From Octopus vulgaris (lineage: Eukaryota), in contig OX597815.1 of the NCBI GenBank assembly GCA_951406725.2, forward strand, positions 189,844,001-189,908,000: a stretch of DNA of 64,000 nucleotides. The letters run 5' to 3'. Positions 4,348 to 63,691 of this stretch are shown one piece after another. Under the pieces are notes generated by a model that did not search any database, had not been told where the DNA came from, and saw nothing but the letters and a program-made list of their open reading frames with translations. Each line of letters opens with the position of its first letter. The stretch's first letter is position 1. A program made the translations under genes and the position numbers.

Positions 4348-4391
4348 ACACAACGTTTCGGCTGATATACCATCCAGCCTTCATCAGGTGT
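4348..4391 (-). ncRNA. Minimal type I hammerhead ribozyme motif
   Basis: Minus strand: acac CTGATGA a ggctg-loop-cagcc GAAAC GTT gtgt; copy at 53313-53356. Confidence 0.8.
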
Positions 4392-5476
4392 CTTGGGGAA
4401 ATTTTGAACCTGGGTTCTCATTCCTAAGGTATTTTTCGATGTCATTATTATTATTGTGGTGGTGGTGGCAGTGGTGGTGATGGTGGTGGTGGTGGTGCTG
4501 GTGCTGTTGCTGCTGCTAGTAATAGTAGTATTAATAGTAATAGTAGTAGTAGAAGCAGCAACTTTATACAGTAATATATAGTTTTTTTTATAAACAAAAT
4601 ACAAATGATTCAATATTGACAGTATTATATGAAAGTGAAGTACTCACACACACACACACACACACATGCACATCAAACAGTAATTTCTTTCATACAACAG
4701 ATACACCTAGTGAAAGTGAATAATTAATTCATTAATAAATAATTAGACTCTTGTAATGCTAATAATGATTATCAAAATTAAATAACCATAGTATATAGCC
4801 ACATATGAAAAGCCTGCAATTAGACAGCAAAATGTCTAACAGTTGGCAAACTTTATATTTCATTATATTAATTCCATTGATTACAGTTTGAATACAATGG
4901 CCGTTAGAGTTATTAGTAAACACTGCTTAATTCTTGGCTTATGATGTTGTTAAATATTTTACATCTTTACATGGATTTGTGTGTGTGAAGACGTGTGTTG
5001 GTAGTTGGAGTAATTAGTGAAATAAGTTAGTTATTGGAATAAAATATTTCTTCTTCTTTCAATCATTTGTAAAATTGGTAAAATATGGATTTGGACAGTA
5101 TTGTTTCCGTTACTTTGTCATTGGTGTTGGTGTTGTTGCTGCCTTTGTTTAGCTTCAGATCAACCTTTATAATTGAGGGCACTCCAGCTGTAGCCAATCT
5201 GTCATATTTTTATATTTATTTTATATTTATATATATTTATGTATATTTATTTTATATTTATATATATTTTTTTCAAGTAAATTTCATCTAAGAACACATG
5301 TTGCAATATATTATTTCTATTTTTTAAAGTGTGATATGAAAGATATACAGCTGCTATTTCTAGCATATCTAGTAACTATATAGACCAGACATTCTCAACC
5401 AGGCTCCATGCAATCCCTGGGAGTACACATATAAGTTTTGAGTATTCGCACAAGCAAAATAGTAAATTTCTGTGTT

Positions 5477-5514
5477 CCTTTCTGTCGAAGAGCATAGGCT
5501 CGAAATGTAAAAGA
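5477..5514 (+). ncRNA. HHR-like motif, CUGUCGA core variant
   Basis: cttt CTGTCGA a gagc-atag-gctc GAAAT GTA aaag. Confidence 0.6.
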
Positions 5515-5704
5515 CTTTCTCACTTCCTGAGCATTAAGCTAATACATCAGTTTGTTGTTTACACACCCATCTTTGTCTTTTGTTTTTTCGTAAATTCTAC
5601 CTATATACTGTCACCTTTTATAGCATTTTATTTATATTCCTTCGATCTTATATAGCTCTAATACATCACAAATTTTTCTACACATATACATCTTTTATCT
5701 TTTA

Positions 5705-13467: not shown

Positions 13468-14679
13468 TAACATGTCATTTCTGTTCGGTTTACTTACTGA
13501 CTTTAAGCAGTAACAAACAATGGTAGATTGTTAACAGTTTATGCCGTTCTCTCTCTCTTAAAATTTATAAATTATTCACTTTTGTTTTTGAAGTGGAATA
13601 AATTTTGCACATTTAGACATTTAAGAATTGTTAAAGTAATTGTTTTTACAGCTGAATGGTTTTTTGTACTCTAATGGTTATATAATGGTTTATCAGAAGT
13701 GTCAGGAAAACTGGTTTTAGTAATAATATTTAAAGTAAAGAACCTGTACCAAGCAGTCTTAACTAGGTGACCCATAGAAAATATCTCAGGGACATGTTCT
13801 GCATGCAAATAGGAATAGCATTTGTATTTGTGTACCATTTCTCCGTTTTTTACTGTCCTTCTTTTGTATACATTTGCTGCTTTCTTCCAAGGAATCTAGT
13901 GCTCTTAGTTTAGATTTTCCTTGGGGCTGGCCAGATTGAAGCAGTCTTGAGTATAACCAGTCAAAACTGCAAAGATGATCTGGAACTCGACTGAGGAAAG
14001 AAAACTCCGAATGACCCATCCTTGTTTTCTCTTGTCCCTTTTTGTATCATCTGTCTGGATGGTTTGTCGTCGCCTGTTGTATTCTTGTCCCACTTTTTGT
14101 ATTCTTATATATATATATATATATATATATTACGGAGATGTACTTGCATAGCAAGTGACCTGATCTGAGATCGTGTGCTGGAACGGTTTTTGTGTGTTTC
14201 TTAAATGGCTTATAAACACCTTCCACGCTGCAATTGTTTATATATATATATATGTGCGTGTGTATGTGTGTGTGTGTGTGTATACAGGGTAAGAGTTATT
14301 AAAACAATAACTTTTACCAGGGGTCAGCATACGTAATAAAAGTCAGAAAAAATAAATATTTCTATATAACAGTGTATAAAAAATTTACACACACAGAGAA
14401 GGCCACCATGTGGACTTCTAACATGCTGAAAAGAGCAGTCAAAACCCAGACTACGAAAACAAAGATTCTTCTTTAAGGCATGTTGCTTTTAAGTGAGCAG
14501 GATATCTAAATGAATAAAAGTCTCAGTTAAGCCTATACCCATTGAGTTTCTGCATTAATGATCAAATAATCTTTCTTTTCAGGGTTTGAGTTTTGACTGC
14601 CTTTTTCATCATGTAAGAAGTCCACATAGTGGCCTTCTCTCCGTGTATAAATTTTTCATACACTATTATAAATATATAT

Positions 14680-15010
14680 ATTTCGTTTTGGTTTGCAAGA
14701 TTCTTTATATGAGTTCGTGTGTTGAAGCATATTCTGTTGTGTCTGGGGAGAGTCACTTTCTTTTTGTGCCTTATTATTCAACACACTCACCGGTAAAATT
14801 TCCACATATTCCTTATTTTTATTTTCTAAAATTTTCGTTGCATGTTGCAACCTTTTCAATAGTTTTGAGAGTCAAAACTATTGAAAAGGTTGCAAAACGC
14901 AACAAAAAATAATTTTAGAAAATAAAAATTAAGAAATAAGTGGAAATTTTACCAGTGAGTGTGTTAAATAATAAGGCACAAAAAGAAAGTGACTCTCCCC
15001 AGACACAACA
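14680..15010. repeat. Fold-back pLTR-like element with two U3-A8 HHR-like motifs
   Basis: About 140-bp arms centred near 14870; motifs at 14826-14862 (-) and 14878-14917 (+, damaged). Confidence 0.75.
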
Positions 15011-15011
15011 G

Positions 15012-15049
<38 letters not shown>

Positions 15050-15629: not shown

Positions 15630-15633
<4 letters not shown>

Positions 15634-15905
15634 CTCCCCCCTCCTCACCTATCCTTTCCCCCCGACCCCTACTTCTTCAGTCCTTCATCCTTTCACCCCT
15701 ACTCCCCTTCCCTTCTTCCCTCTTTCTCCCTCCCTCTTCCCCTTCCCTCTGCTCCCTCACTCCCTCTCTCCCCTTCTCTCTTTCCCTCTCCCTCTTTCCT
15801 CCTTCATCCCCCTCCTCCCCCATCCTCTCCTCTTCTCCCCTCTCCTCCCCCTCTTCTTCCCCTCCCCTTCTCTCCCCCTCTTCTCCCCCTCCCCCTCTTC
15901 TCCTC
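15630..15905. repeat. Polypyrimidine/polypurine low-complexity tract
   Basis: Almost only C/T on the plus strand. Confidence 0.9.
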
Positions 15906-15949
15906 ACTACACCACATGACTTTACACATCACATCACATATGATGTGCC

Positions 15950-16285
15950 ATACTAATACACACACCAACTAATACATACTAATACGTACTAATACATACT
16001 AGTACATACTAATACATACACCAACCCTATACATACACACGTCCAGACCCCGCATACGCACTTATACTCTCTCATACACACACACACACACTTATACATA
16101 CCAATACGTACTAATACATACTAATACATACTAATACATACACCAACCCCATACATACGCACGTCCAGACCAATCCTACGCACTAATACTCTCTCATACA
16201 CACACACACACACACCCTTATACATACTAATACATACACCAACCCTATACATACACACATCCAGACCCCTCCTACGCACTATTAG
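15950..16285. repeat. Tandem repeat of about 120-nt units with ATACTAATAC subunits
   Basis: Three copies of catacaccaaccc...tccagacc...acgcact. Confidence 0.75.
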
Positions 16286-16446
16286 CTGGTCCCTCAACCC
16301 TTTTATCAACCCTATTATCTCCCCTTATTTCGCTCTCGCGTCTCATGTTTGATCTTTGACCTCTGGCCGAAATCAGATCGCCATGTTGATTCGTTAGCAC
16401 GCATTTTTTTTCTCTCCTTCTTTCTGTGTTTTTCTCTCTCTGTGTA

Positions 16447-16484
16447 TCTTTCTGTTGAAGAGCGTAGGCTCGAAACGTTAAAGA
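16447..16484 (+). ncRNA. HHR-like motif, CUGUUGA core variant
   Basis: tcttt CTGTTGA a gagc-gtag-gctc GAAAC GTT aaaga. Confidence 0.65.
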
Positions 16485-17541
16485 CTTGTTTTATTTATAT
16501 TTCCTGAGCGCCATACTAATACAATTGTTCGTTTGTTTTCCACCTGCCTTCGTCTTTTGTTTATTTTCATAAAGCTTCCCGTTATATATATACATATACA
16601 TATACACACATTTTGGTGTTATTTGAACCCAGAAAGTCAAGAGCTGGAAGAAGCACTGCCAAGTAATTTTCCTGACACACTAATGATTCTGCCAGCTTCC
16701 TGCCTTAAATACCTCTCTAACAATGATTTCAAATTTCGGCACAAGGCCAACAATTTCAAGGGAGTGGTAAATAAAATTATATTGACCCTAGTATTCAACT
16801 GGTATTTATTTTATCAACTCTGAAAGGGTGAAAGGCAAAGTCAATCTCAGTGGAATTTGAACTTGGAATGTAAAGTTGGATGAAATGCCCTAATTAAAAA
16901 TCCTGCCAACTCACTGCCTTAAATACTAATGAGTTTGTGTATCTGGTCTGTTGGTAATATGTCAAATTATTACTTTATAATTCATATTCTGATGGCCCAA
17001 AGTTGCGTAAGTCTGTCGACTGTAAAAGATGAACTTCACTAAACACCATCATCTTCATTTAACGTCTTATTTTTCATGCTGGCATGGATTAGACGATTTT
17101 GAAGGAGCTGGCAAGGTTGAGAGCTGGACCATACTCCATTGTCTGTTTTGGCTTGGTTACTACAGCCTGATACCCTTCCTAACTCCAACTACTTTACAGA
17201 ATTTATATATATATATATATGTGTATATATATATATATATATCTATATATAAGTATAGTCGTCACTACAGTGACAGAGGGTGCCAGTCAGCACCAGAATT
17301 CCTAGAAATACAAGTCGAAACAACTCTTAGCCACGTGAGGACACTTTTCTAATGACTGGCTAAGAGTTGTTTTGACAGTTATTTCTAGCAATGCTGACTG
17401 GGCACCCTCAATTATTTTAGTGGCAACTACGCTTGCAGCCTTTTGAATTGTCAGTCACCACATACAATGTATTTCACTATAAACAGACATCGTGTTGAAT
17501 TGAGGGCAGCAAGCTAACAGAATTTTTTTTTAAATGTGTTA

Positions 17542-17599: not shown

Positions 17600-18144
17600 A
17601 TACAATAAGAAATAAATGAAATGCTTACAAGCACCCATGGAAAAAGTAGAAGCAAAGTCATTTGTATGCATAAGCACCCCAAACATATGTAAATATAAAT
17701 TCGGTAACAAGCCTCAATGCATGTGTAATCAGTCAGGAACCACAGCTTAGAGTGGTCACCAGTCCCAAAGTGAATGGTAATAATTTTACTTCTAGTATAG
17801 GATAAAATTTTTCAAAAAATTTCATCAAGTGGCCAGCATATTAAGATATCTTTTAAGGAGAAAATTATAAGCAATTATAATTAAGGGCAGAAGAAAAATT
17901 TGTATGCCAATATGCTGAGAAATATATTGTATATGGTGTTTGATGATTTAAATTCTATTTTTCAGCATATTGGCATAGAAATTTTTCTTTTGCCCTTATT
18001 TATAATTGTGGAGTAGATGAAACAGGGACGACTGATGAAGGGGCATATTCTTTATGTTGCATGTCTCGTGTATACATACATATATATTTATAGATATATG
18101 CATACATACATATATATATGTATGTATATATATATATGCATGTA

Positions 18145-28769: not shown

Positions 28770-30218
28770 AATTAAAGAAGGAAAATGCACACTTTACATA
28801 GTTTTAATATAATTTTTAATACATCATATATTGTGTTTGTTGACCGGTTTCACTTTCTCTAATCCTGACTTTAAAATATATTTAAATGTGTATCTTCTTA
28901 AGAAAAAACTTTTTGTCCATGTCTGAGGAGTTTATGAATGAATCATTCAACAAGTAGAAAAATTTAAATGCAGTTAAATTAGATATTTCCATTCTAAATT
29001 GTTGAAGTTTGAATTAATTTTTCGCTTATGGAAAGTATTTGGGAAATTCTGGATATGGTCACAGAAGTCATCTAGTGTTTTATTCCTACATTTAGGTGGA
29101 AGATTATTGCTTCTGTCTTTAACCAGTGATTCATCCTCGTTGTTGTAGTCAGTTAGTGCTTCTGTGAGTCATAGTTTTCTGCAGAATTCTGAAATATTGT
29201 TTTTAAATTCATTATGGTTAACTCTTCGTGGGGTTGGAATGAACTTTAATCCTTTAACTAGTATATTGATCTTTGTTGCAGAGAGATTTTTCTTTGATAA
29301 ATTTGTTACTTTGGGTTTCTCCGAGGAGTTTTGTTCCAACATGTGTCCCTGTTTCTCTCCACTCGGTCTAAAAAAATTTACTGTAATTTGGTTGGTAGAA
29401 GTTAGTATTATTTATATCATTAATTATATCAGTATTGTTATTGTTATTATTATATTGGGATTACTGGGAGGTTGGTATTGCTGTCTAGGTTAACTGGTTT
29501 TACTTACGTGGTTCAGGTTTCTTCGTTGGAATAAATTGTTGAGGTGCTTAATTATGTTTAGGATGTTGAGGAGTTGGTTGTGCTGTCTGGGTAAATAGGT
29601 TGAGTTTCTTTGTTGAGAGGTAGAGGAAGTTTCTTGGACGTTTCTAGTTGCTGGGGAGTAAAATTTACTCCTAACCCTAGGTTGGTTTTTTCTAGAATGT
29701 CTTATTAGTGAGTTGTCCCTATTACTAGATTGAGAATGGGTTATTTCCAGGTGAGAAGTCAGTTTTGTGTGTTTGTGTTCTTTTGGATGTTTATAGTTAG
29801 ATCTCAGTGGACGTGTATTTATGTCTGTAGATGTACGTGTTCTAGATTTTTTTAGGAAGGGGTTATATGAAGTGTAGTCTCTTTTAAATTGAGTTTCGTA
29901 ACTAAGGAAGAAATTAAAACTGCTTTCCCATCGTTGCAGGGAATATATTTCTTCCGACTCACAGCTGTCTTTCCATAGTTTTATAACACTTTCCAAAAGT
30001 TGTTCATCAGCATGTTTAGTGAGTCTAGTAAGCATTTCTTCAGCGGTCGTTTCATATTTTTGTTCGTTATTCGATGCCCTGAGTTTAAGTAACTCAATCT
30101 CTATTTTCATTTTAATGTCATGATTGATGAAAGTGAAACCGGTCGACAAACAATATAAGATATATTAAAAATTATATTAAAACTATGTAAAGTGTGTACA
30201 TTTTCCTTCTTTAAATCC
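28770..30218 (-). mobile_element. Penelope-like element N-terminal fragment bracketed by inverted pLTR-like pieces
   Basis: Minus strand translates VTNLSKKNL...KGLKFIPTP...EFCRKL (typical pre-RT region of PLEs) downstream of ORF 29490..30149; 28770-28858 is the reverse complement of 30130-30218. Confidence 0.75.
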
Positions 30219-30901: not shown

Positions 30902-31004
30902 GGAGTAAACACATAAATGTGAAACAAGGTGGAAAAAAAGAGTACTCAAATACCAGTGGTAGAGTAATATGCTTTATTTAAAGCAGCAGAAAATTCAACA
31001 AAAC

Positions 31005-31042
31005 CTGTTACTCTGAGTTTCCCGTTGCCGTTCATCGGACAG
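31005..31042 (-). ncRNA. HHR motif, CCGAUGA (U4C) variant, in fold-back 30972-31192
   Basis: Minus strand: ctgt CCGATGA acg gcaa cgg GAAACTC a GAGTA acag; mirror copy 31122-31159 (+). Confidence 0.7.
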
Positions 31043-31190
31043 TTTTTGCTAGAATGGAACCGATATGTCAATTCTATCCAGACTGGATAGAATAGACTTA
31101 TCGGTTCCATTCTAGCAAAAACTGTCCGATGAACGGCAACGGGAAACTCAGCTTAACAGATTTTGTTGAATTTTCTGCTGCTTTAAATAA

Positions 31191-31225
<35 letters not shown>

Positions 31226-31731: not shown

Positions 31732-31804
<73 letters not shown>

Positions 31805-31899
31805 CGGGAAGGTTTACGAAAATAATCAAAAGGCGAAGGCAGGAGGAGTACAAACAAACAATGTATTAGTATGGCTCTCAGGAATAGAAATAAAACAAG

Positions 31900-31937
31900 T
31901 CTTTTACGTTTCGAGCCTACGCTCTTCGACAGAAAGA
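31900..31937 (-). ncRNA. HHR-like motif, CUGUCGA variant, in a 200-bp element (31803-32001) between TA tracts
   Basis: Minus strand: tcttt CTGTCGA a gagc-gtag-gctc GAAAC GTA aaaga. Confidence 0.65.
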
Positions 31938-32000
31938 TACACAGAAAAGAAACAAGGAGAGAAAAAAATTGCGTGTAGGGGCTAACGATCCAACATGGCG

Positions 32001-32069
<69 letters not shown>

Positions 32070-43410: not shown

Positions 43411-43445
43411 CTTAATTAAAATAAAAACATGATGCCAAGGATTCA

Positions 43446-43523
43446 GCAGTACATATGTTTCGGGCCTTTATTAGACGGATTTATAACAATGCATAATGTG
43501 TGTCTATGGCCTTCTTCAGCCGC
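43446..43523 (-). ncRNA. Hammerhead motif (left arm of fold-back 43425-43689)
   Basis: Reverse complement of 43591-43668 with one stem I substitution. Confidence 0.8.
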
Positions 43524-43590
43524 GCACAATTACTACCCCAAGGACGTAGAATTTTTGATGTAATACATGTCCTTGGGGTAGTAATTGTGC

Positions 43591-43668
43591 GCGGCTGAAG
43601 AAGGCCATAGACACACATTATGCATTGTTATAAATCCGTCTAATAAAGGCCCGAAACATATGTACCGC
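43591..43668 (+). ncRNA. Type I hammerhead ribozyme motif
   Basis: gcgg CTGAAGA a ggcc.tagac...gtcta..ggcc c GAAAC ATAT GTA ccgc; palindromic stem III. Confidence 0.85.
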
Positions 43669-43851
43669 TGAATCCTTGGCATCATGTTTACTCCACCACC
43701 TACACCACCAAACGGTATATACAGGTGCTTACAATTATCAAGTACTCACCCTAAATTTCTATATATATATATATATATATATAAAGGTAGAAGAAAATGG
43801 AGATTGTGAAGTTAATAAGAGTTTATTATCAACAACAAATTGATCATTATT

Positions 43852-43971: not shown

Positions 43972-44026
<55 letters not shown>

Positions 44027-44093
44027 ACCGCGTGTGTACCGTTGGCGATTTTTTCCCTCTGTCTTCCCTTCTCTGGATCTTTCCTTCTCCTAT

Positions 44094-44128
44094 GTTTCCG
44101 ACGAAGAGCTCCGCTCGAAACGTTAGAC
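44094..44128 (+). ncRNA. HHR-like motif, CCGACGA variant, in element 44020-44228 between TA tracts
   Basis: gttt CCGACGA a gagc-tcc-gctc GAAAC GTT agac. Confidence 0.65.
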
Positions 44129-44227
44129 CCTCCTTCTTTTCTTCTTTCCTGAGCGTCCAATAATACTGTATTTGTTCCACGTCCTCGCGTTGTTGTGTTT
44201 TTTTTTGTGCTTTCATGTTTGGATTAA

Positions 44228-44278
<51 letters not shown>

Positions 44279-53257: not shown

Positions 53258-53628
53258 ATTATTTACATTTTTTACAATTGACGGATATTTGTCTTCATCT
53301 TGTTTGTTGTTAACACAACGTTTCAGCTGATATACCCTCCCGCCTTCATCAGGTGTCTTGGGGAAATTTCGAACCTAGGTTCTCATTCCTAAGGTATTTT
53401 TCAATGTTGTTGTTGTTGTTATTATTATTATTATTATTATTCAAGTCACTGCCTGGAATCGAACTTGGAATCTTAGGGTTAGTAGCCCGCGCTCTTAACC
53501 ACTATGCTATATGCCCATGGGCATATGGAGTAGTTGTTAACATTGTGTTAACAACAAACAAGATGAGGACAAATATTCGTCAAATGTAAATAGTGTAAAT
53601 AATTCCTCATCTCTTAAATATAGAACTG
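53258..53628 (-). mobile_element. tRNA-headed, HHR-containing SINE-like element with inverted 3'-end copy
   Basis: tRNA-like 53445-53516 (-), (AAT/AAC)n, HHR 53313-53356, inverted tail 53543-53628. Confidence 0.7.
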
Positions 53629-54077
53629 AATGACCAATGAAAATAATACATTTTTACCCTCTTCTTTTACTCTCTAACAAAATGTTACCCACCAATTTTA
53701 ACTATGCTATTTAATATTTCCTCATACTGCACATGACATGAGTAAATATGGTCAGCCCAAGGATAAAGTAAATTGCATTTGTCCAAGGTGCTACACAGCA
53801 GGACTGAAGCTGAGATCATGTGGTTGTGAAGCAAGTTTCTTACCACACAGCCATGCCTGCACCTGGTTAGGAGGTATTGTACATTCTTAAAATAGTTATT
53901 GGCTAGAATTATCTATAATTCTCAACAAATAATTATACAATTTAAAGAAAGAAGAAAAAAATTTATCTTCACCATAGTTTCATCAATAACAGGGCAAAAA
54001 CAAATAACTAAACGCATTAACAAAAACCGAGAGCAGAGAAATAAACAAAAATATACATACATACTTATATATTCATA

Positions 54078-56194: not shown

Positions 56195-57842
56195 AAAAAA
56201 TGAAGTTCGAAAATGCTGCTGTATTATATAATTTTTAATTTTTATATATACATTATAACATGTTTCAGTTCCTGAAATGAACCTTATCAAAAAAAGTTAT
56301 ATATAAAAAGAGACAGCTCATGCCGTCAAACACAAGAAATTCATTTATAATACACAACGGAGTCAGACATCTTAGAGTTCATGTATAGTTGATATATAGT
56401 TCATGTATAGTTGATATATAGTTTGAAGTATATTTCAAAGTGTTCGATGCAGTGGCCCACGGTGGCGATACGTATTCAATGCAAAAAACAGATCAAAGTG
56501 GTGGAAAGCGGTCAATACAGAAGATTGATGTTTCCGAAAGAGCGAGGAATTCATTTTTACCTTAAGCAATTGTGATGACCCATGGTGGAAGTTCGCTGGG
56601 TGGTTCTAGTGATTTTTTGTGAAATGCTTGGTTTTATAATGCCTGTTAGGTGGTCAATCTAGCGTAGCGTGACGTCATCAATGTTTTGACCAATCGTTTC
56701 GTTAGTTGGCTTTAATCAAGTGGAACGGGACGTCATCATTATTTTGACCAATCAGTGCATTATAACTCCCTCTTGTTTGTTTCCTGTCTTGACCAGTCGC
56801 TTCGTTAGTCAAGCATAGCGGGATGTCATTCAGATTCTGCCCAATCACGACTTATAGCTACATTAGATCTGTCCCCTGTCTGTACTTGTTAGGTGACTAT
56901 TCAAGCAGAAAAGGACGTCATCAATATTCTGACTAATGACTGTCCCCTGTTTGTATCCTGTCCATTCTAGCAGAGCTAGATGTCATCAACTTGTTGACCA
57001 ATCAGAATCGGGTCTGACCCTTAGCTGTATCGTATGTATCAGGGTCAGATTTGCACGAAAGAATTTTTTTCCTTTTTTTACTAAGGCATATTTCCGTCAG
57101 AGTGAGTGTCTGTTTGAAGTAGCGGCCGTGGTGAAATTTGGTTCTCCTTTTCGGAGGACTTATCTTTTGTTTTAGTATTCCTGGCCCAGGGTGTTTAAAC
57201 TTGGTCTAAATTTTTTTATGAAATATAGTTCTTTATTTTGGCGTTGTGTGAAGGTTGCGTTGTCACTGAATTTATAGAGCGGGTTAGTTGTAAATTTCGG
57301 ATTTACATTTCCAGCACATCTATCTATGTGTCCGCTGACCGGTATTTTGCGGTAATCAGGGTTTCTAATTTGTGATTTATGCACCGCCATCCTGTTACGT
57401 AAGCTATTTTTTGTATGGCCTATATACTGCCTATTGCAGCCTGCGCATGTTATGACGTAAATTAAGTTTTCTGATGCGCAGGTGAAGTTTGTTCTAATGG
57501 TGAACTGGTGGCCTTGTTCCAGTATAAATTCTGATCCTTCTTTCAAGATGACACAGATTCCGCAGTTGGGCCTTCCACATTTTCTAACTGCTGGTTTTGT
57601 GGTTGATGTTGAGTGCAGTGTAGCTTGGGTTAAAATCCTTTTCAAGGATTTTGGTTGCCGTTTACTTTTAATGATCGTGTGTGTTTCGAGGATCCGGTTC
57701 ATCTTTGGGTCTCCCTTTAGTAGGGCTGTGCTTTGTAGTATGGTGTTGAAGGCCTCATTGTTGAGTGGGTTGTGTGTAGAGATGTAGGGAAGGGTTTTTA
57801 ATTGTTCTTTCTTTTTTGGTTTTGTTTGTCTCAGGTCTTCAT
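56195..57842 (-). mobile_element. 5'-truncated Penelope-like element (GIY-YIG, 3' UTR, pLTR with HHR-like motif)
   Basis: GIY-YIG ORF followed by about 1 kb UTR; both ends in TA arrays. Confidence 0.9.
57172..57842 (-). CDS. PLE linker and GIY-YIG endonuclease (partial)
   Basis: LPYISTHNP...CGRPNCGIC...[25 protein letters not shown]...LRNRMAVH...RQNKELYFI...PSLN; frame open upstream to the TA tract. Confidence 0.9.
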
Positions 57843-59040
<1,198 letters not shown>

Positions 59041-62000
59041 TCATCATCATCATCGTTTAGCGTCCGTTTTCCATGCTAGCATGGGTTGGACGGTTCTACT
59101 GGGGTCTGTGAAGCCAGAAGGCTTCATCAGGCCCAGTCAAATCTGGCAGTGTTTCTACGGCTGGATGCCCTTCCTAACGCCAACCACTCCGTGAGTGTAG
59201 TGGGTGCTGTTTACGTGCCACCCGCACTGGTGCCAGACAGAGCTGGCAAACGGCCACGAACGGATGGTGCTTTTTATGTGCCACCGGCACGAGGGCCAGG
59301 CAAGGCTGGCAACGGACACGAAACGGGGCGGTGCTGGCAACGGTCGCAAAACGGAAAGTTCTCTTACATGCCACCGGCACTGGTAACACATCTGCAATTT
59401 CCATTGATCGATTTCCATTGATCGATTTCGATTCTGATCCTCACTTGCCTCAACGGGTCTTCACAAGCAGAGTTTTGACATGCCACCGGCACTGGTAGCA
59501 CATCCGCAATTTCCATTGATCGATTTCGATTCTGATCCTCACTTGCCTCAACACGTCTTCACAAGTAGAGTTTTGTGTCCCAAGAAGGGAAGGTATGCAT
59601 ACGTAGGCCGGCTCCATCCCATGTAGAAGGCCACGGGTTATGGACTCACTTGTCCTGCCGGGTCTTCTCGCGCACAGCACACTTCCAGAGGTCTCGGTCT
59701 CTAGTCATTTCCTCAGTGAGACCTAAAGTTCGAAGGTCGTGCTTCACCACCTCGTCCCAGGTTTTCCTGGGTCTGCCTCTTCCACAGGTTCCCTCAACCG
59801 CTAGGGTGTGGCCCTTTTTCACACAACTATCTTCATCCATTCTCGCCACATGACCATACCAGTGCAAACGTCTCTCTTGCACACCACAACTGATGCTTCT
59901 TAGGTCCAGCTTTTCTCTCAAGGTACTTACACTCTGCCGAGTGTGAGTACCGGCATTACACATCCATCGGAGCATACTGGCTTCATTTCTAGCGAGCTTA
60001 CGCATATCCTCAGCAGTCACGGCCCATGTTTCACTGCCATGTAGCATGGCTGTTCGTACACACGCATCATACAGTCTGCCTTTCACTCTGTGCGAGAGGC
60101 CTTTTGTCACCAGCAGAGGTAAGAGCTCTCTGAACTTTGCCCAAGCTATTCTTACTCTAGCAGTTACACTTTCAGCACACCCGCCCCCGCTGCTGACTTG
60201 GTCACCTAGGTAACGGAAACTATCAACTATTTCTAGTTTTTCTCCCTGGAAAGTGACGGAAGTTGGTCTCAGAGCATTTTCAGTGTTTATTGTTCCTGAG
60301 CATCTGCCACATACAAAAACCATCTTCCTAGTTAGCCTTCCTTTGACATTGCTGCATCTCTTATGTGTCCATAGCTTACACTTGGTGCATCTTATAGAGT
60401 TTCTACCTACACCTTTTCTACAGATCGAGCAGGGCCATCTACCTGAAGGTGTTTGTGATTTGTCTACCTTCCTACTGATTACGACTTTGGTTTTAGCTAG
60501 ATTGACTCTGAGGCCCTTCGATTCTAATCCTTGTTTCCACACCTGAAACTTCTCCTCCAGTTCTGATAGCGACTCAGCAATTAGAGCAAGGTCATCAGCA
60601 TAGAGGAGCTCCCAAGGGCATCCTGTCTTGAATTCCTCCGTTATTGCCTGGAGGACTATGATAAATAGGAGGGGGCTGAGTACTGAGCCTTGGTGGACTC
60701 CTACCTCTACCCGGAATTCTTCACTGTACACATTTCCAACCCTCACCCTACTAGCGGCGTCCCTATACATGGCCCGCACAGCTCTCACTAACCATTCATC
60801 TATCCCTAGTTTCCTCATTGCCCACCAGATAAGGGATCGGGGGACCCTGTCGAAGGCTTTCTCCATGTCAACAAAAGCCAGGTACAGGGGCTTATCTTTG
60901 GCTAGGTATTTCTCCTGCAGCTGCCTTACCAGGAATATAGCATCAGTAGTACTTTTCCCTGGCACAAACCCAAACTGCATCTCATCTAAACTAACTCTCT
61001 CTCTAATTAGTTGGGCTATGACCCTCTCCGTAACCTTCATCACCTGGTCCAACAGCTTGATACCTCTGTAGTTATTTGTATCTAGGGCATCACCTTTACC
61101 TTTGTAGCAGTTGACTATTATACTGCTACACCAGTCATTGGGTATGACCCCTTTGTGTATCACCTGATTAACTATACGGGTGACTAGGCTATAGCCGACA
61201 CTACCAGACATTTTGAGCATCTCTGCAGTGATTCCTGATGGGCCTGGGGCTTTCCCTGTCTTCATGCTTCTAATTGCCTTAGCTACCACGGAACTATCAA
61301 CTCGGATAGCTGGTCCCTCTGTTGGGTCAACATTCGGCAGACTCTCTTTATCCCATTCATTTTCTTCATTCAGCAACCTTTCATAGTGGCATCTCCAAAC
61401 CTCTCTCTTTGCATCCTCATTTAGCGCAAGTGAACCATCTTCCATGCGAACACACTTCTCTCCTACCACATCACGATTCTCTCTCACACACTGTCTTGCA
61501 ACACGAAACACCTCCAGTCTTTGGTCCTCACGGCGCAGAACATTGGCAAATTTTTTCTTATCTGCTTCCCCTCTGGCTAAATAAACCTGTCTCCTAGCTT
61601 CTCTTTTGGCAGTCTGATACAATCCCCTGCTACCCCCATTTTTCCAGACCTTCCAAGCCTGTCTCTTTTCTCTAATAGCCCTGTCTACAATATTGTTCCA
61701 CCACCACGTTATTCTAGGTCGAGAGGGGACTTTGCACCAGCCACAGATCTGGTCAGTGGCTCTCAGCAGGTTGTCCCTTAGAAACGTCCAGCTGTCTTCT
61801 ACCCCCTGTGATGCTCTATCCCCTTCTACTTCGTCAGAGGCTTCAAGTAATATGTCCCTAAATCTCTGTCCATTTGCAGGATCTTTAAGCTTCCAGATCC
61901 TTCTTCTCCATATTTGTCATCTTCTGGTTGTCCTCCTAGTCCTGATCCTAAAGTCACTAACTACCAGTCTATGTTGTGGGGTACATTCTTCACCTGGGAA

Positions 62001-62441
62001 GGTTTTGGCATTTATAAGCAGCCATCTCTCCCTTTGCCTTGTAAGGATGTAGTCAATTTGGCTGGTATGTTGGCCCGATTGGTAAGTGACTAGGTGGCTG
62101 GTAGGTTTCCTGAAGTTAGTGTTGCAAATCATAAGATTATTTGCATCGCAGAACTCCAGCAGCCTGGTTCCCTCCTCGTTGCGGGAGCCATAGCCATAGC
62201 CTCCATGTATGCCATGGAAGCCCCCAGCATGTCGTCCAACGTGACCATTGAAGTCACCAGCCACAAAGATAAGGTCTCTGTCGTTCGTCAACGAGGTAGT
62301 CTGCAGTAGAGTGTCATAGAATCGGTCTTTCTGTCCATCGGGTAGCCCCGACTGAGGAGCATAGGCTGATATAATGGTTGCTAAACTATGATGAAGCACT
62401 AATCTAATCTTAAGTATTCTGTCACATACTCTGATTACCTC
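59041..62441 (-). mobile_element. Near-intact 5'-truncated RTE-clade LINE
   Basis: APE remnant ([26 protein letters not shown]), RT ORF, 3' UTR, (ATG)n tail; stop near 61917 and frameshift near 61622. Confidence 0.95.
59646..61622 (-). CDS. RTE LINE reverse transcriptase with internal PHD-like Cys cluster (disrupted ORF)
   Basis: KAPGPSGI, QFGF, FVDMEKAFD, GVHQGSVLSP, YADD, CSIC..C..C..H..C..C..C, GRGRPRKTW. Confidence 0.92.
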   Translation of the reverse strand: MYQTAKREARRQVYLARGEADKKKFANVLRREDQRLEVFRVARQCVRENRDVVGEKCVRMEDGSLALNEDAKREVWRCHYERLLNEENEWDKESLPNVDPTEGPAIRVDSSVVAKAIRSMKTGKAPGPSGITAEMLKMSGSVGYSLVTRIVNQVIHKGVIPNDWCSSIIVNCYKGKGDALDTNNYRGIKLLDQVMKVTERVIAQLIRERVSLDEMQFGFVPGKSTTDAIFLVRQLQEKYLAKDKPLYLAFVDMEKAFDRVPRSLIWWAMRKLGIDEWLVRAVRAMYRDAASRVRVGNVYSEEFRVEVGVHQGSVLSPLLFIIVLQAITEEFKTGCPWELLYADDLALIAESLSELEEKFQVWKQGLESKGLRVNLAKTKVVISRKVDKSQTPSGRWPCSICRKGVGRNSIRCTKCKLWTHKRCSNVKGRLTRKMVFVCGRCSGTINTENALRPTSVTFQGEKLEIVDSFRYLGDQVSSGGGCAESVTARVRIAWAKFRELLPLLVTKGLSHRVKGRLYDACVRTAMLHGSETWAVTAEDMRKLARNEASMLRWMCNAGTHTRQSVSTLREKLDLRSISCGVQERRLHWYGHVARMDEDSCVKKGHTLAVEGTCGRGRPRKTWDEVVKHDLRTLGLTEEMTRDRDLWKCAVREKTRQDK

Positions 62442-62444
62442 AAT

Positions 62445-62459
62445 TAATATATATATATC

Positions 62460-62523
<64 letters not shown>

Positions 62524-62880
62524 GATAGATATATATATATATATATGTAGATATATATATATATATATGTAGATATATATATATATATGTAGATAGATAT
62601 ATATATATATGTAGATAGATATATATATATATATGTAGATAGATATATATATATATAGATAGATATATATATATATATGTAGATAGATATATATATATGT
62701 AGATAGATATATATATATGTAGATAGATATATATATATGTAGATAGATATATATATATGTAGATAGATATATATATATATGTAGATAGATATATATATAT
62801 ATAGATATATATATGTAGATATATATATATATATAGATATATATATGTAGATATATATATATATATAGATATATATATGT

Positions 62881-62915
<35 letters not shown>

Positions 62916-63020
62916 GATAGATATATATATATATATATATGTAGATAGATAGATACATATATATGTAGAGATATATATATATATAGATAGATAGATACTC
63001 ACATACATACATACATACGT
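62445..63020. repeat. (TA)n/(GATA)n compound microsatellite
   Basis: Directly visible. Confidence 0.95.
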
Positions 63021-63691
63021 ACATATTATATATCCATATATAAACTCAATTAATTTGAGCAAATGCTTTGCGACAAATATTTTTGCCCAGAAATAAACAG
63101 AAATAATGCAGACAACATCCAAATAAGAATACAAACAAGCGAGCAAAATATATAATGAGACTATACAGTGGAACGGCAATCCTGCACATATAAATGTAGA
63201 CAATGTAAGACATAGCTGAATTCAAAAATATACAATATCTCGTCTCAGTTATTAACAGAGTTCAGAAAAGACAAAAATAATCAAAGAAACAAAACCAAGA
63301 TTAACTATCTTAGAAGTAATCACCGACTCGATGTTCAGCCAAAGTAAAAGAAACTATGCTTCTGATATGCTATAAATATAGCAGACATTTCCTAGACTAT
63401 GTCAATTTTGGTTCATGCCCACATTACAAACTGTGGCTTATAAATCAAAACAAACTACAAATATTTCAAAATCACACTATGAATTATGATAAGCTGTGTG
63501 TTGTACTACAGCAGACACTGACCACCAAATGCATATTATTGCAGTGTAGGAGAAAGCCTTGTCAATATATTTATTTAACCAGTCACACTTTGGGATTATT
63601 TGCTGTCAATGCAGGCCTTCCAAGTTCCCTATATTTCTGGATTATATCTTATTAAAGTTCACCTCTCTCTCTCTCTCCCTCTCCATTTCCT

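What the first reader, a model, noticed from the sequence alone, without database searches (positions are those of the whole stretch)
16380..16583. Recurrent CUGUYGA (A6U) hammerhead-like family
Seen in three dispersed copies (5477 +, 16447 +, 31900 -) with conserved stem I cttt/aaag, stem II gagc/gctc and GAAAYGTH. A6 is normally strongly conserved, so a shared change means the variant was amplified. Inference: either a tolerated new core or a catalytically dead fold kept as an RT recognition signal.
Basis: partly seen in the sequence, partly recalled or inferred. Interest (0 to 1): 0.7.

Follow-up and report, generated by a model that had tools for sequence, protein, structure and literature searches.

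The report
Retroelement hammerhead with fixed U6 core
Three scattered copies of an abundant animal repeat, likely end pieces of a Penelope-like jumping gene, carry that group's known tiny hammerhead RNA motif with one normally fixed core letter changed (A to U) across the family while the other catalytic letters are kept, so it is predicted to be a slowed self-cutter rather than a dead one, though cutting is untested.

Summary
Observation confirmed. Three copies (core C3 at 5482+, 16452+, 31932-) read CUGU(C/U)GA-A-GAGC-loop-GCUC-GAAAYGUH; 0 of 100 shuffles give a match. The layout is the published minimal type I hammerhead of Penelope-like elements (PMC4209133) except U at position 6. The free position 7 takes all four letters. 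The hammerhead is better kept than its flank (34/36 vs 59/90 between two U6 copies). In metagenomes, 84 of 85 same-stem motifs have A6 and none has U6. All window copies span the cut site, so they were likely copied from uncut RNA. Best reading: an attenuated, dimer- or protein-dependent ribozyme under selection. The RT-recognition idea is weaker: a tested PLE RT uses templates lacking the core (PMC11167929). No RT ORF was linked and cleavage is untested. This scan noted the same thing before on other DNA (two pieces of this genome, four notes from other genomes). New variant of a known kind.

The parts
16447..16484 (+). Focal minimal type I hammerhead motif, core CUGUUGA (U6 at 16455), extra A at 16459, stem II GAGC/GCUC, palindrome ACGU, predicted cut after 16479
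16379..16585 (+). ~200-bp repeat unit carrying the motif; its 3' end meets a (TA)n-like tract about 103 nt after the predicted cut
16262..16378 (+). Upstream extension that belongs to the same repeat in other genomic copies (contigs bridge 16380 with >=31 letters each side, e.g. X5 record 19, X10 records 12 and 13); no ORF remnant seen
15631..16261 (+). Pyrimidine-rich tract and 10-bp/122-bp tandem repeats after a (CA)15 run; possibly the rest of this 5'-truncated copy (not tested)
31802..32001 (-). Second copy of the unit, between two (TA)n tracts; core CUGUCGA with C3 at 31932, U6 at 31929, predicted cut after 31905
5467..5604 (+). Third, more diverged and 5'-truncated copy; core CUGUCGA with C3 at 5482; 34/36 identical to the second copy in the hammerhead, 59/90 in the 3' flank
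44021..44232 (+). Distant sister copy of the same unit between (TA)n tracts; core CCGACGA (A6 kept, U4C), C3 at 44098

Best explanation
These are dispersed short copies of a very abundant repeat, likely the 3' terminal (pseudo-LTR) piece of a Penelope-like retroelement, whose minimal hammerhead has U fixed at core position 6 and is predicted to be a slowed, dimer- or protein-dependent self-cutter still under selection. Shown: the motif, its architecture, fixation of U6, free variation at position 7, better conservation of the hammerhead than of its flank, and copies that run through the cut site. Inferred: the element's reverse transcriptase starts about 90-105 nt downstream of the cut site and must copy through an uncut hammerhead, so slow cleavage is tolerated or favoured, while some residual cleavage keeps the other catalytic letters fixed.
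For: Architecture matches PMC4209133: extra base between A9 and G10.1, G10.1-C11.1 pair, palindromic 15.2/16.2, helix I of 4-5 bp, no helix III. Position 6 shows no other letter at >=3% in 4 of 4 DNA runs or >=1% in 4 of 4 runs. N7 is the only one of the 36 hammerhead positions with three alternative letters (in X1: U 32%, A 20%, G 7% against C). At the C7-G8 CpG, C>U reaches 29-49% but G8>A only 0.2-1.9%. C3, U4, G5, A9, G10.1, C11.1, G12, A13, A14, A15.1, U16.1 and A17 have no listed variant at >=1%. Two U6 copies: 34/36 identical in the hammerhead vs 59/90 in the 3' flank, Fisher p=0.0004; another pair 32/36 vs 63/92, p=0.013. Hundreds of contigs align only over the ~39-nt hammerhead with unalignable flanks (loose ends at 16448/16449 and 16487; at 31935/31936 and 31897), so U6 is shared by diverged subfamilies. 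A same-stem A6 relative (L043) lies about 100 nt after the stop of a GIY-YIG ORF piece. Natural A6C is slow but active (PMC3088659; kobs 0.004 vs 0.31 per min at 1 mM Mg vs Mn, PMC7151607). The Anolis PLE hammerhead cleaves only with protein, and uncut RNA is the insertion substrate; its RT starts 85-92 nt after the cut (PMC11167929). All 4 window copies span the cut site.
Against: No cleavage data for U6 were found or produced. In a pairwise mutational scan of a type III hammerhead, all single and double mutants in the CUGA turn were low except the C3-G8 swap (PMC9901934). PLE minimal hammerheads are already weak with A6, so U6 may abolish activity. No RT or GIY-YIG ORF is linked to any U6 copy; PLE membership rests on architecture and insertion pattern. 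No tandem pair, which the dimer needs, is present in the window. Loop 2 and most stem positions are also nearly invariant, so part of the conservation may be ascertainment (>=80% alike, depth-weighted contigs) or a non-catalytic constraint. The third and fourth pair comparisons were not significant (p=0.05, p=0.34). The modelled double-hammerhead dimer is 3-10 kcal/mol less stable than two monomers in a nearest-neighbour model that ignores core contacts.
Confidence: 0.5

Rival explanations
1. The U6 motif is catalytically dead but its sequence or fold is kept for another job in the terminal repeat, such as binding the element's protein, RNA dimerisation through the ACGU palindrome, or a DNA-level promoter or target signal.
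For: CUGA-turn mutants are low in activity. The PLE hammerhead was dispensable for insertion in vitro. Loop 2 and the stems are as invariant as the catalytic letters, apart from CpG changes. With U6, a U4-G16.2, G5-C15.2, U6-A15.1 helix closes the core in the focal copy (P 0.79-0.98).
Against: The one freely varying position is N7, the position that hammerhead catalysis leaves free, and G8>A does not amplify despite lying in a CpG. The Anolis PLE protein used a template lacking the core and most of stem II. The closing helix is only P about 0.4 in the second copy and 0.04 in the third.
Confidence: 0.25
2. U6 is an inactivating mutation that hitchhiked in one successful master element; the fold is a relic and nothing selects it now.
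For: Naiad PLEs proliferate without a canonical hammerhead (PMC8557442). A sister copy carries a different core lesion, U4C, which fits relaxed selection.
Against: U6 is shared by subfamilies with four N7 states and unalignable flanks. The hammerhead is significantly better kept than the flank between U6 copies.
Confidence: 0.13
3. U6 is a fully working alternative core, rescued by a family-specific tertiary contact (the nearly invariant GUAG loop), by the element's protein or by another metal ion.
For: A6C is almost fully rescued by Mn2+. Perreault et al. propose that tertiary contacts offset core changes in natural variants. The loop is conserved apart from a CpG change.
Against: No second-site rescue in the CUGA turn was found among all double mutants. 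No class of copies starting at the cut site is listed (table 6 'none'; top loose ends lie elsewhere, with 553 and 223 rows not shown). Contigs of RNA-guessed runs bridge the cut site.
Confidence: 0.1
4. The pattern reflects protein coding, with N7 a synonymous third position (GUN in the sense frame, UCN in the antisense frame).
For: N7 is a fourfold-degenerate third position in one frame on each strand; in the Anolis PLE the ORF overlaps the hammerhead.
Against: Of the other fourfold sites inside the motif, only 1 of 5 in the sense frame (a CpG site) and at most 1 of 7 in the antisense frame has a listed variant. The majority A17 makes a TAA stop in the sense frame, and frameshifting indels are common next to the motif.
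Confidence: 0.02

Closest known systems
Minimal type I hammerheads (min-HHR) in pseudo-LTRs of metazoan Penelope-like elements (Cervera and De la Pena 2014, PMC4209133; parts 1-2 of 4 of the text and part 2 of 3 of supplementary file 2 read; file 1 not searched)
   Same: Extra base between A9 and G10.1, G10.1-C11.1 pair, palindromic GAAACGU with no helix III, 4-5 bp helix I, mostly solitary dispersed copies, U-rich 5' flank.
   Different: U at position 6. All 44 of the 56 representatives that I saw have A6; the one core change they report is C3-G8 to U3-A8. Their descriptor fixed the core, so U6 families would be missed. No ORF link is shown here.
Natural A6C hammerhead of phage Bcep176 (Perreault et al. 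2011, PMC3088659, passages read; Naghdi et al. 2020, PMC7151607, parts 1-2 of 4 read)
   Same: A natural substitution at position 6 with the rest of the core kept.
   Different: C not U, a single phage motif with its own stem III, and shown to be slow in Mg2+ and active in Mn2+. Here U6 is fixed in a high-copy animal family and untested.
PAc, Poseidon-clade PLE of Anolis carolinensis (Frangieh et al. 2024, PMC11167929, parts 1-2 of 4 read)
   Same: Copies end about 90-105 nt after the predicted cut, in AT-rich targets, and run through the cut site.
   Different: PAc has an ORF starting at stem II and a tested, protein-assisted hammerhead; no ORF start is seen here.
Animal non-LTR retrozymes (Li et al. 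2026 preprint 10.64898/2026.07.22.740005, part 1 of 5 read; PMC7229834, search listing only)
   Same: Non-coding, type I hammerhead, linked to PLE pseudo-LTRs.
   Different: Retrozymes are defined by tandem units; these copies are dispersed monomers with differing 5' ends.
Small dimer-cleaving hammerheads associated with PLEs (Lunse et al. 2017; not held; seen only as cited in PMC6765202)
   Same: Shortened stem III, dimer cleavage, PLE association.
   Different: Could not check whether position-6 variants are among its motifs.

Membership tests
PLE minimal type I hammerhead | Core CUGANGA | tested here: not met
   U at position 6 in 3 of 3 copies; C3, U4, G5, G8, A9 kept
PLE minimal type I hammerhead | GAAA box, U16.1 and H17 not G | tested here: met
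   GAAAYGT then T or A in the window; family letter is A17
PLE minimal type I hammerhead | Extra base between A9 and G10.1, and G10.1-C11.1 pair closing helix II | tested here: met
   A 16459; G16460-C16471
PLE minimal type I hammerhead | Palindromic 15.1-16.1 instead of helix III | tested here: met
   ACGU in 2 of 3 copies, AUGU in the copy at 5482
PLE minimal type I hammerhead | Helix I of 4-5 bp | tested here: met
   (U)CUUU/AAAG(A), formed in predicted folds of 2 of 3 copies at 53 nt and 3 of 3 at 48 nt
PLE minimal type I hammerhead | Self-cleavage as a dimer | not testable with these tools
   Needs an in vitro assay; contigs cannot show RNA ends
Penelope-like element (EN+) | Linked ORF with telomerase-like RT and GIY-YIG endonuclease | tested here: inconclusive
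   No ORF remnant upstream of the longest copy; no genome held. A same-stem A6 relative lies about 100 nt after a GIY-YIG stop (L043). An unlinked GIY-YIG piece is in the window
Penelope-like element (EN+) | Copies share the 3' end and are 5'-truncated | tested here: met
   4 copies end about 90-105 nt after the cut; 5' ends lie 15, 69, about 77 and >190 nt before C3
Penelope-like element (EN+) | Insertion bias for microsatellites (Neptune, Naiad) | tested here: met
   Copies at 31932 and 44098 lie between (TA)n tracts, the focal copy ends at one, the copy at 5482 does not clearly
Penelope-like element (EN+) | Tandem or inverted arrangement forming pseudo-LTRs | tested here: inconclusive
   None among the 4 window copies; solitary truncated copies are the published majority
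Non-LTR retrozyme | Tandem units each with a hammerhead | tested here: not met
   Dispersed monomers in the window; the rest of the genome was not available
Rfam hammerhead families | Covariance-model match | tested here: not met
   No hammerhead row among the 150 shown of 164 matches up to E=1

The most novel reading that the evidence does not exclude
CUGUNGA is a naturally selected, working alternative hammerhead core, held for a long time across many subfamilies and several species and switched on by the element's own protein, a tertiary contact or a metal ion, so that the RNA stays uncut while it is reverse-transcribed and is cut only at a later step.
Probability: 0.2. Interest if true: 0.7.

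Novelty: new variant of a known kind. Interest (0 to 1): 0.42.

Why it matters
Why Penelope-like elements keep a hammerhead is an open question: it is weak in vitro and was dispensable for insertion in the one reconstituted system. A high-copy family with a fixed change at a normally invariant core position, and the other catalytic letters still conserved, is a natural experiment. If U6 cleaves, the hammerhead consensus and the search descriptors that fix CUGANGA are too narrow and miss whole families. If it does not, the fold has a non-catalytic job in these elements. The class is known and the activity untested, so interest is moderate.

Tried and rejected
Own-genome search: no genome held, so no copy number, subfamily tree or ORF link. 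Rfam scan: only microsatellite and palindrome noise among the rows shown. U6 pattern in viral contigs and genome contigs: 0 matches each. No RNA holder on record was listed; this says nothing on expression. Three runs guessed to be RNA gave 2,628, 203 and 258 laid records with U6 and some contigs bridging the predicted cut (X19 records 19, 20; X20 records 27, 29, 30), but they may hold DNA and contigs show no ends, so this is not used for or against cleavage; the sharper depth peak over the motif in those runs is not interpretable. First reading that position 17 varies between A and U was dropped: with an A17 reference no variant at >=1% is listed, so U17 is rare or private to the focal copy. 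Idea that U6 locks the monomer by pairing with A15.1: strong only in the focal copy (P 0.97), 0.41 and 0.04 in the others, and mean P(G5-C15.2) 0.03 when modelled in 64 A6 relatives; kept as a weak lead. Folding z-scores were not significant for any of 6 stretches. Pairing of loop GUAG with an upstream CUAC and a 3' splice site at the AG after the pyrimidine tract were considered; the focal copy lacks CUAC, no phased sequences were available, and no such joint or loose end is among those listed. Coding constraint rejected. Literature searches for a natural A6U hammerhead listed none; Lunse et al. 2017 was not held and subscription papers are not covered. PMC11014351 has no A6U passage; PMC13282606 has no mention of ribozymes.

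Full report
Observation. The window is AT-rich, microsatellite-rich animal DNA full of dispersed repeats. Earlier scan notes call the genome octopus-like (unchecked), which fits my recall of its short repeats; I did not test this. A descriptor scan finds the three motifs with C3 at 5482(+), 16452(+) and 31932(-), each CTGT(C/T)GA-A-GAGC-loop-GCTC-GAAA-YGT-H between CTTT and AAAG. The 27-letter pattern has 3 exact matches, none further with 3 mismatches, and 0 in 100 shuffles. BLAST and an HMM show that the motifs sit in a ~200-bp repeat unit with four copies in the window; the fourth (44021-44232) has core CCGACGA, that is A6 kept and U4C. Rfam shows no hammerhead among 150 of 164 rows.

What it is. 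The architecture is that of the minimal type I hammerheads described in the terminal repeats of metazoan Penelope-like elements: an extra base between A9 and G10.1, a G10.1-C11.1 pair, a palindrome in place of helix III, a short helix I, and mostly solitary copies (PMC4209133). The 44 representatives that I saw of the 56 in its Figure S3 all have A6. The four window copies share a 3' end about 90-105 nt after the predicted cut, differ at the 5' end, and three of four abut (TA)n tracts, as expected for 5'-truncated microsatellite-targeting PLEs (PMC8557442, passages). A metagenome scan with positions 6 and 7 left free gave 85 loci with the same stem II: 84 have A6, one has C6 (L049, no stem I, long ORFs around it, probably chance), none U6. 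These loci are not independent: most belong to one element group and 64 distinct A6 excerpts remain. Two of 85 carry a GIY-YIG-like match, and in L043 the motif lies about 100 nt after the stop of that ORF piece on the same strand. No ORF is linked to a U6 copy, and no whole genome was available, so PLE membership is inferred.

Is U6 the family state? Contigs from four DNA runs of four coded organisms (11,026, 12,399, 8,062 and 4,801 records at >=80% identity) laid on the focal copy list no other letter at 16455 at 3% of depth, while the next position shows A (18-22%), C (16-19%) and G (8-15%). Laid on the second copy with a 1% threshold, one DNA run and three RNA-guessed runs again list nothing at position 6 (31929), nor at C3, U4, G5, A9, the extra A, G10.1, C11.1, G12, A13, A14, A15.1, U16.1 or A17. 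The listed variants inside the motif are N7 (three letters), CpG-type changes (G8>A 0.2-1.9%, C15.2>U 3-6%, G16.2>A 3-14%, loop G>A 3-21%, stem II C>U 0.2-5.5%), a stem II G>A (0.1-2.5%) and a stem I G>U (1-6%).

Is the core still selected? Three signs say yes. First, N7, the position that hammerheads leave free, is the only one of 36 with all four letters. Second, at the C7-G8 CpG the C>U change reaches 29-49% and the G8>A change at most 1.9%. Third, two U6 copies in the window are 34/36 identical over the hammerhead but 59/90 over the 3' flank (p=0.0004); a second pair gives 32/36 vs 63/92 (p=0.013); the pair with the sister copy gives p=0.05 and the closest pair p=0.34. In addition hundreds of contigs align only over the ~39-nt motif, with unalignable flanks on both sides (loose ends), so U6 is shared by diverged subfamilies. 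A coding explanation fails because the other fourfold sites hardly vary and A17 makes a stop. Against over-reading: the loop and stems are nearly invariant too, which could be ascertainment or a non-catalytic constraint.

How it likely works. Shown in the literature: position-6 changes lower activity. Natural A6C gives kobs below 0.1 per min (PMC3088659), 0.004 per min in 1 mM Mg2+ but 0.31 in 1 mM Mn2+ (PMC7151607); in a full pairwise scan all CUGA-turn mutants were low except the C3-G8 swap (PMC9901934, passages). In the reconstituted Anolis PLE the hammerhead cleaves only with protein, catalytic mutants insert normally, uncut RNA is the main substrate, reverse transcription starts 111-118 nt into the ORF with the cut at +26, and a template starting at +20 still works (PMC11167929). 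Shown here: every window copy spans the cut site, and no class of contigs starting at the cut is among those listed. Inferred: the RT starts downstream and reads through an uncut hammerhead, so fast cleavage would destroy the template and a slowed core is tolerated or favoured; residual dimer- or protein-dependent cleavage would explain why the other catalytic letters stay fixed. I put this at 0.5, a dead fold kept for another job at 0.25, hitchhiking at 0.13, a fully rescued core at 0.1 and coding at 0.02. The RT-recognition version of the dead-fold idea is weakened by the +20 truncation, though that is another PLE clade. A model in which U6 pairs with A15.1 and shuts the monomer holds strongly only for the focal copy.

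Novelty. The class is known. A natural family-fixed A6U core was not listed by my searches, but the published descriptors fixed the core, Lunse et al. 2017 was not held, and supplementary file 1 of PMC4209133 could not be searched. This scan had already noted U6 families on other DNA: two other pieces of this genome and four notes from other genomes. Those notes are unchecked AI readings and are not counted as evidence; my first reading was written before I saw them. Verdict: real, family-wide, a new variant of a known kind, activity untested; interest 0.42.

Noticed in passing
window 44021-44232 (+): Sister copy of the same ~200-bp unit with core CCGACGA (U4C, A6 kept) and a 3-nt loop; natural U4C is reported from a viroid. 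Whether U4C is fixed in its subfamily was not tested.
   Followed up: partly
window 4356-4391 (-), with related repeats at 53258-53420 and 53539-53630: Another minimal hammerhead family with a canonical core (CUGAUGA-A-GGCU...AGCC-GAAACGUU); the two copies near 53 kb form an inverted pair.
   Followed up: no
window 63822 (-) and 63896 (+): Head-to-head pair of minimal hammerhead-like motifs with canonical CUGAAGA cores about 75 nt apart.
   Followed up: no
window 56240-57840 (-): 5'-truncated PLE-like piece between (TA)n tracts: Cys-rich linker and GIY-YIG domain (Pfam PF01541, E 7e-7), then a ~930-nt 3' region with repeated ATTGG and TGACGTC motifs; no minimal hammerhead found by my scans.
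   Followed up: partly
window 29000-30110 (-): Broken ORF that by recall resembles the N-terminal part of a PLE protein; no Pfam match for the 206-aa piece. It lies 1.7 kb downstream of the 31932 copy but other repeats intervene, so no link is claimed.
   Followed up: partly
window 59646-63221 (-): Near-intact non-LTR retrotransposon ORF (756-aa open stretch with YADD RT motif; endonuclease part upstream, split by a (TA)n tract), RTE-like by recall.
   Followed up: no
window 30967-31197, 43425-43689, 17872-18008, 14348-14689, 14729-15016: Several long near-perfect palindromic repeats (MITE-like or inverted PLE ends); they cause spurious Rfam miRNA matches.
   Followed up: no
window 16379-16388 and 31992-32001 (-): The short unit starts at CGCCATGTTG, which by recall resembles a YY1/initiator motif; the copy at 32001 begins exactly there, so it may mark the element's transcription start.
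   Followed up: no
position 31928: The RNA-guessed runs X19 and X20 favour the A7 subfamily (44-48% vs 20% in the DNA run), and CpG-type changes in stem and loop are rarer in them; possibly younger or expressed subfamilies, not interpretable from contigs.
   Followed up: no
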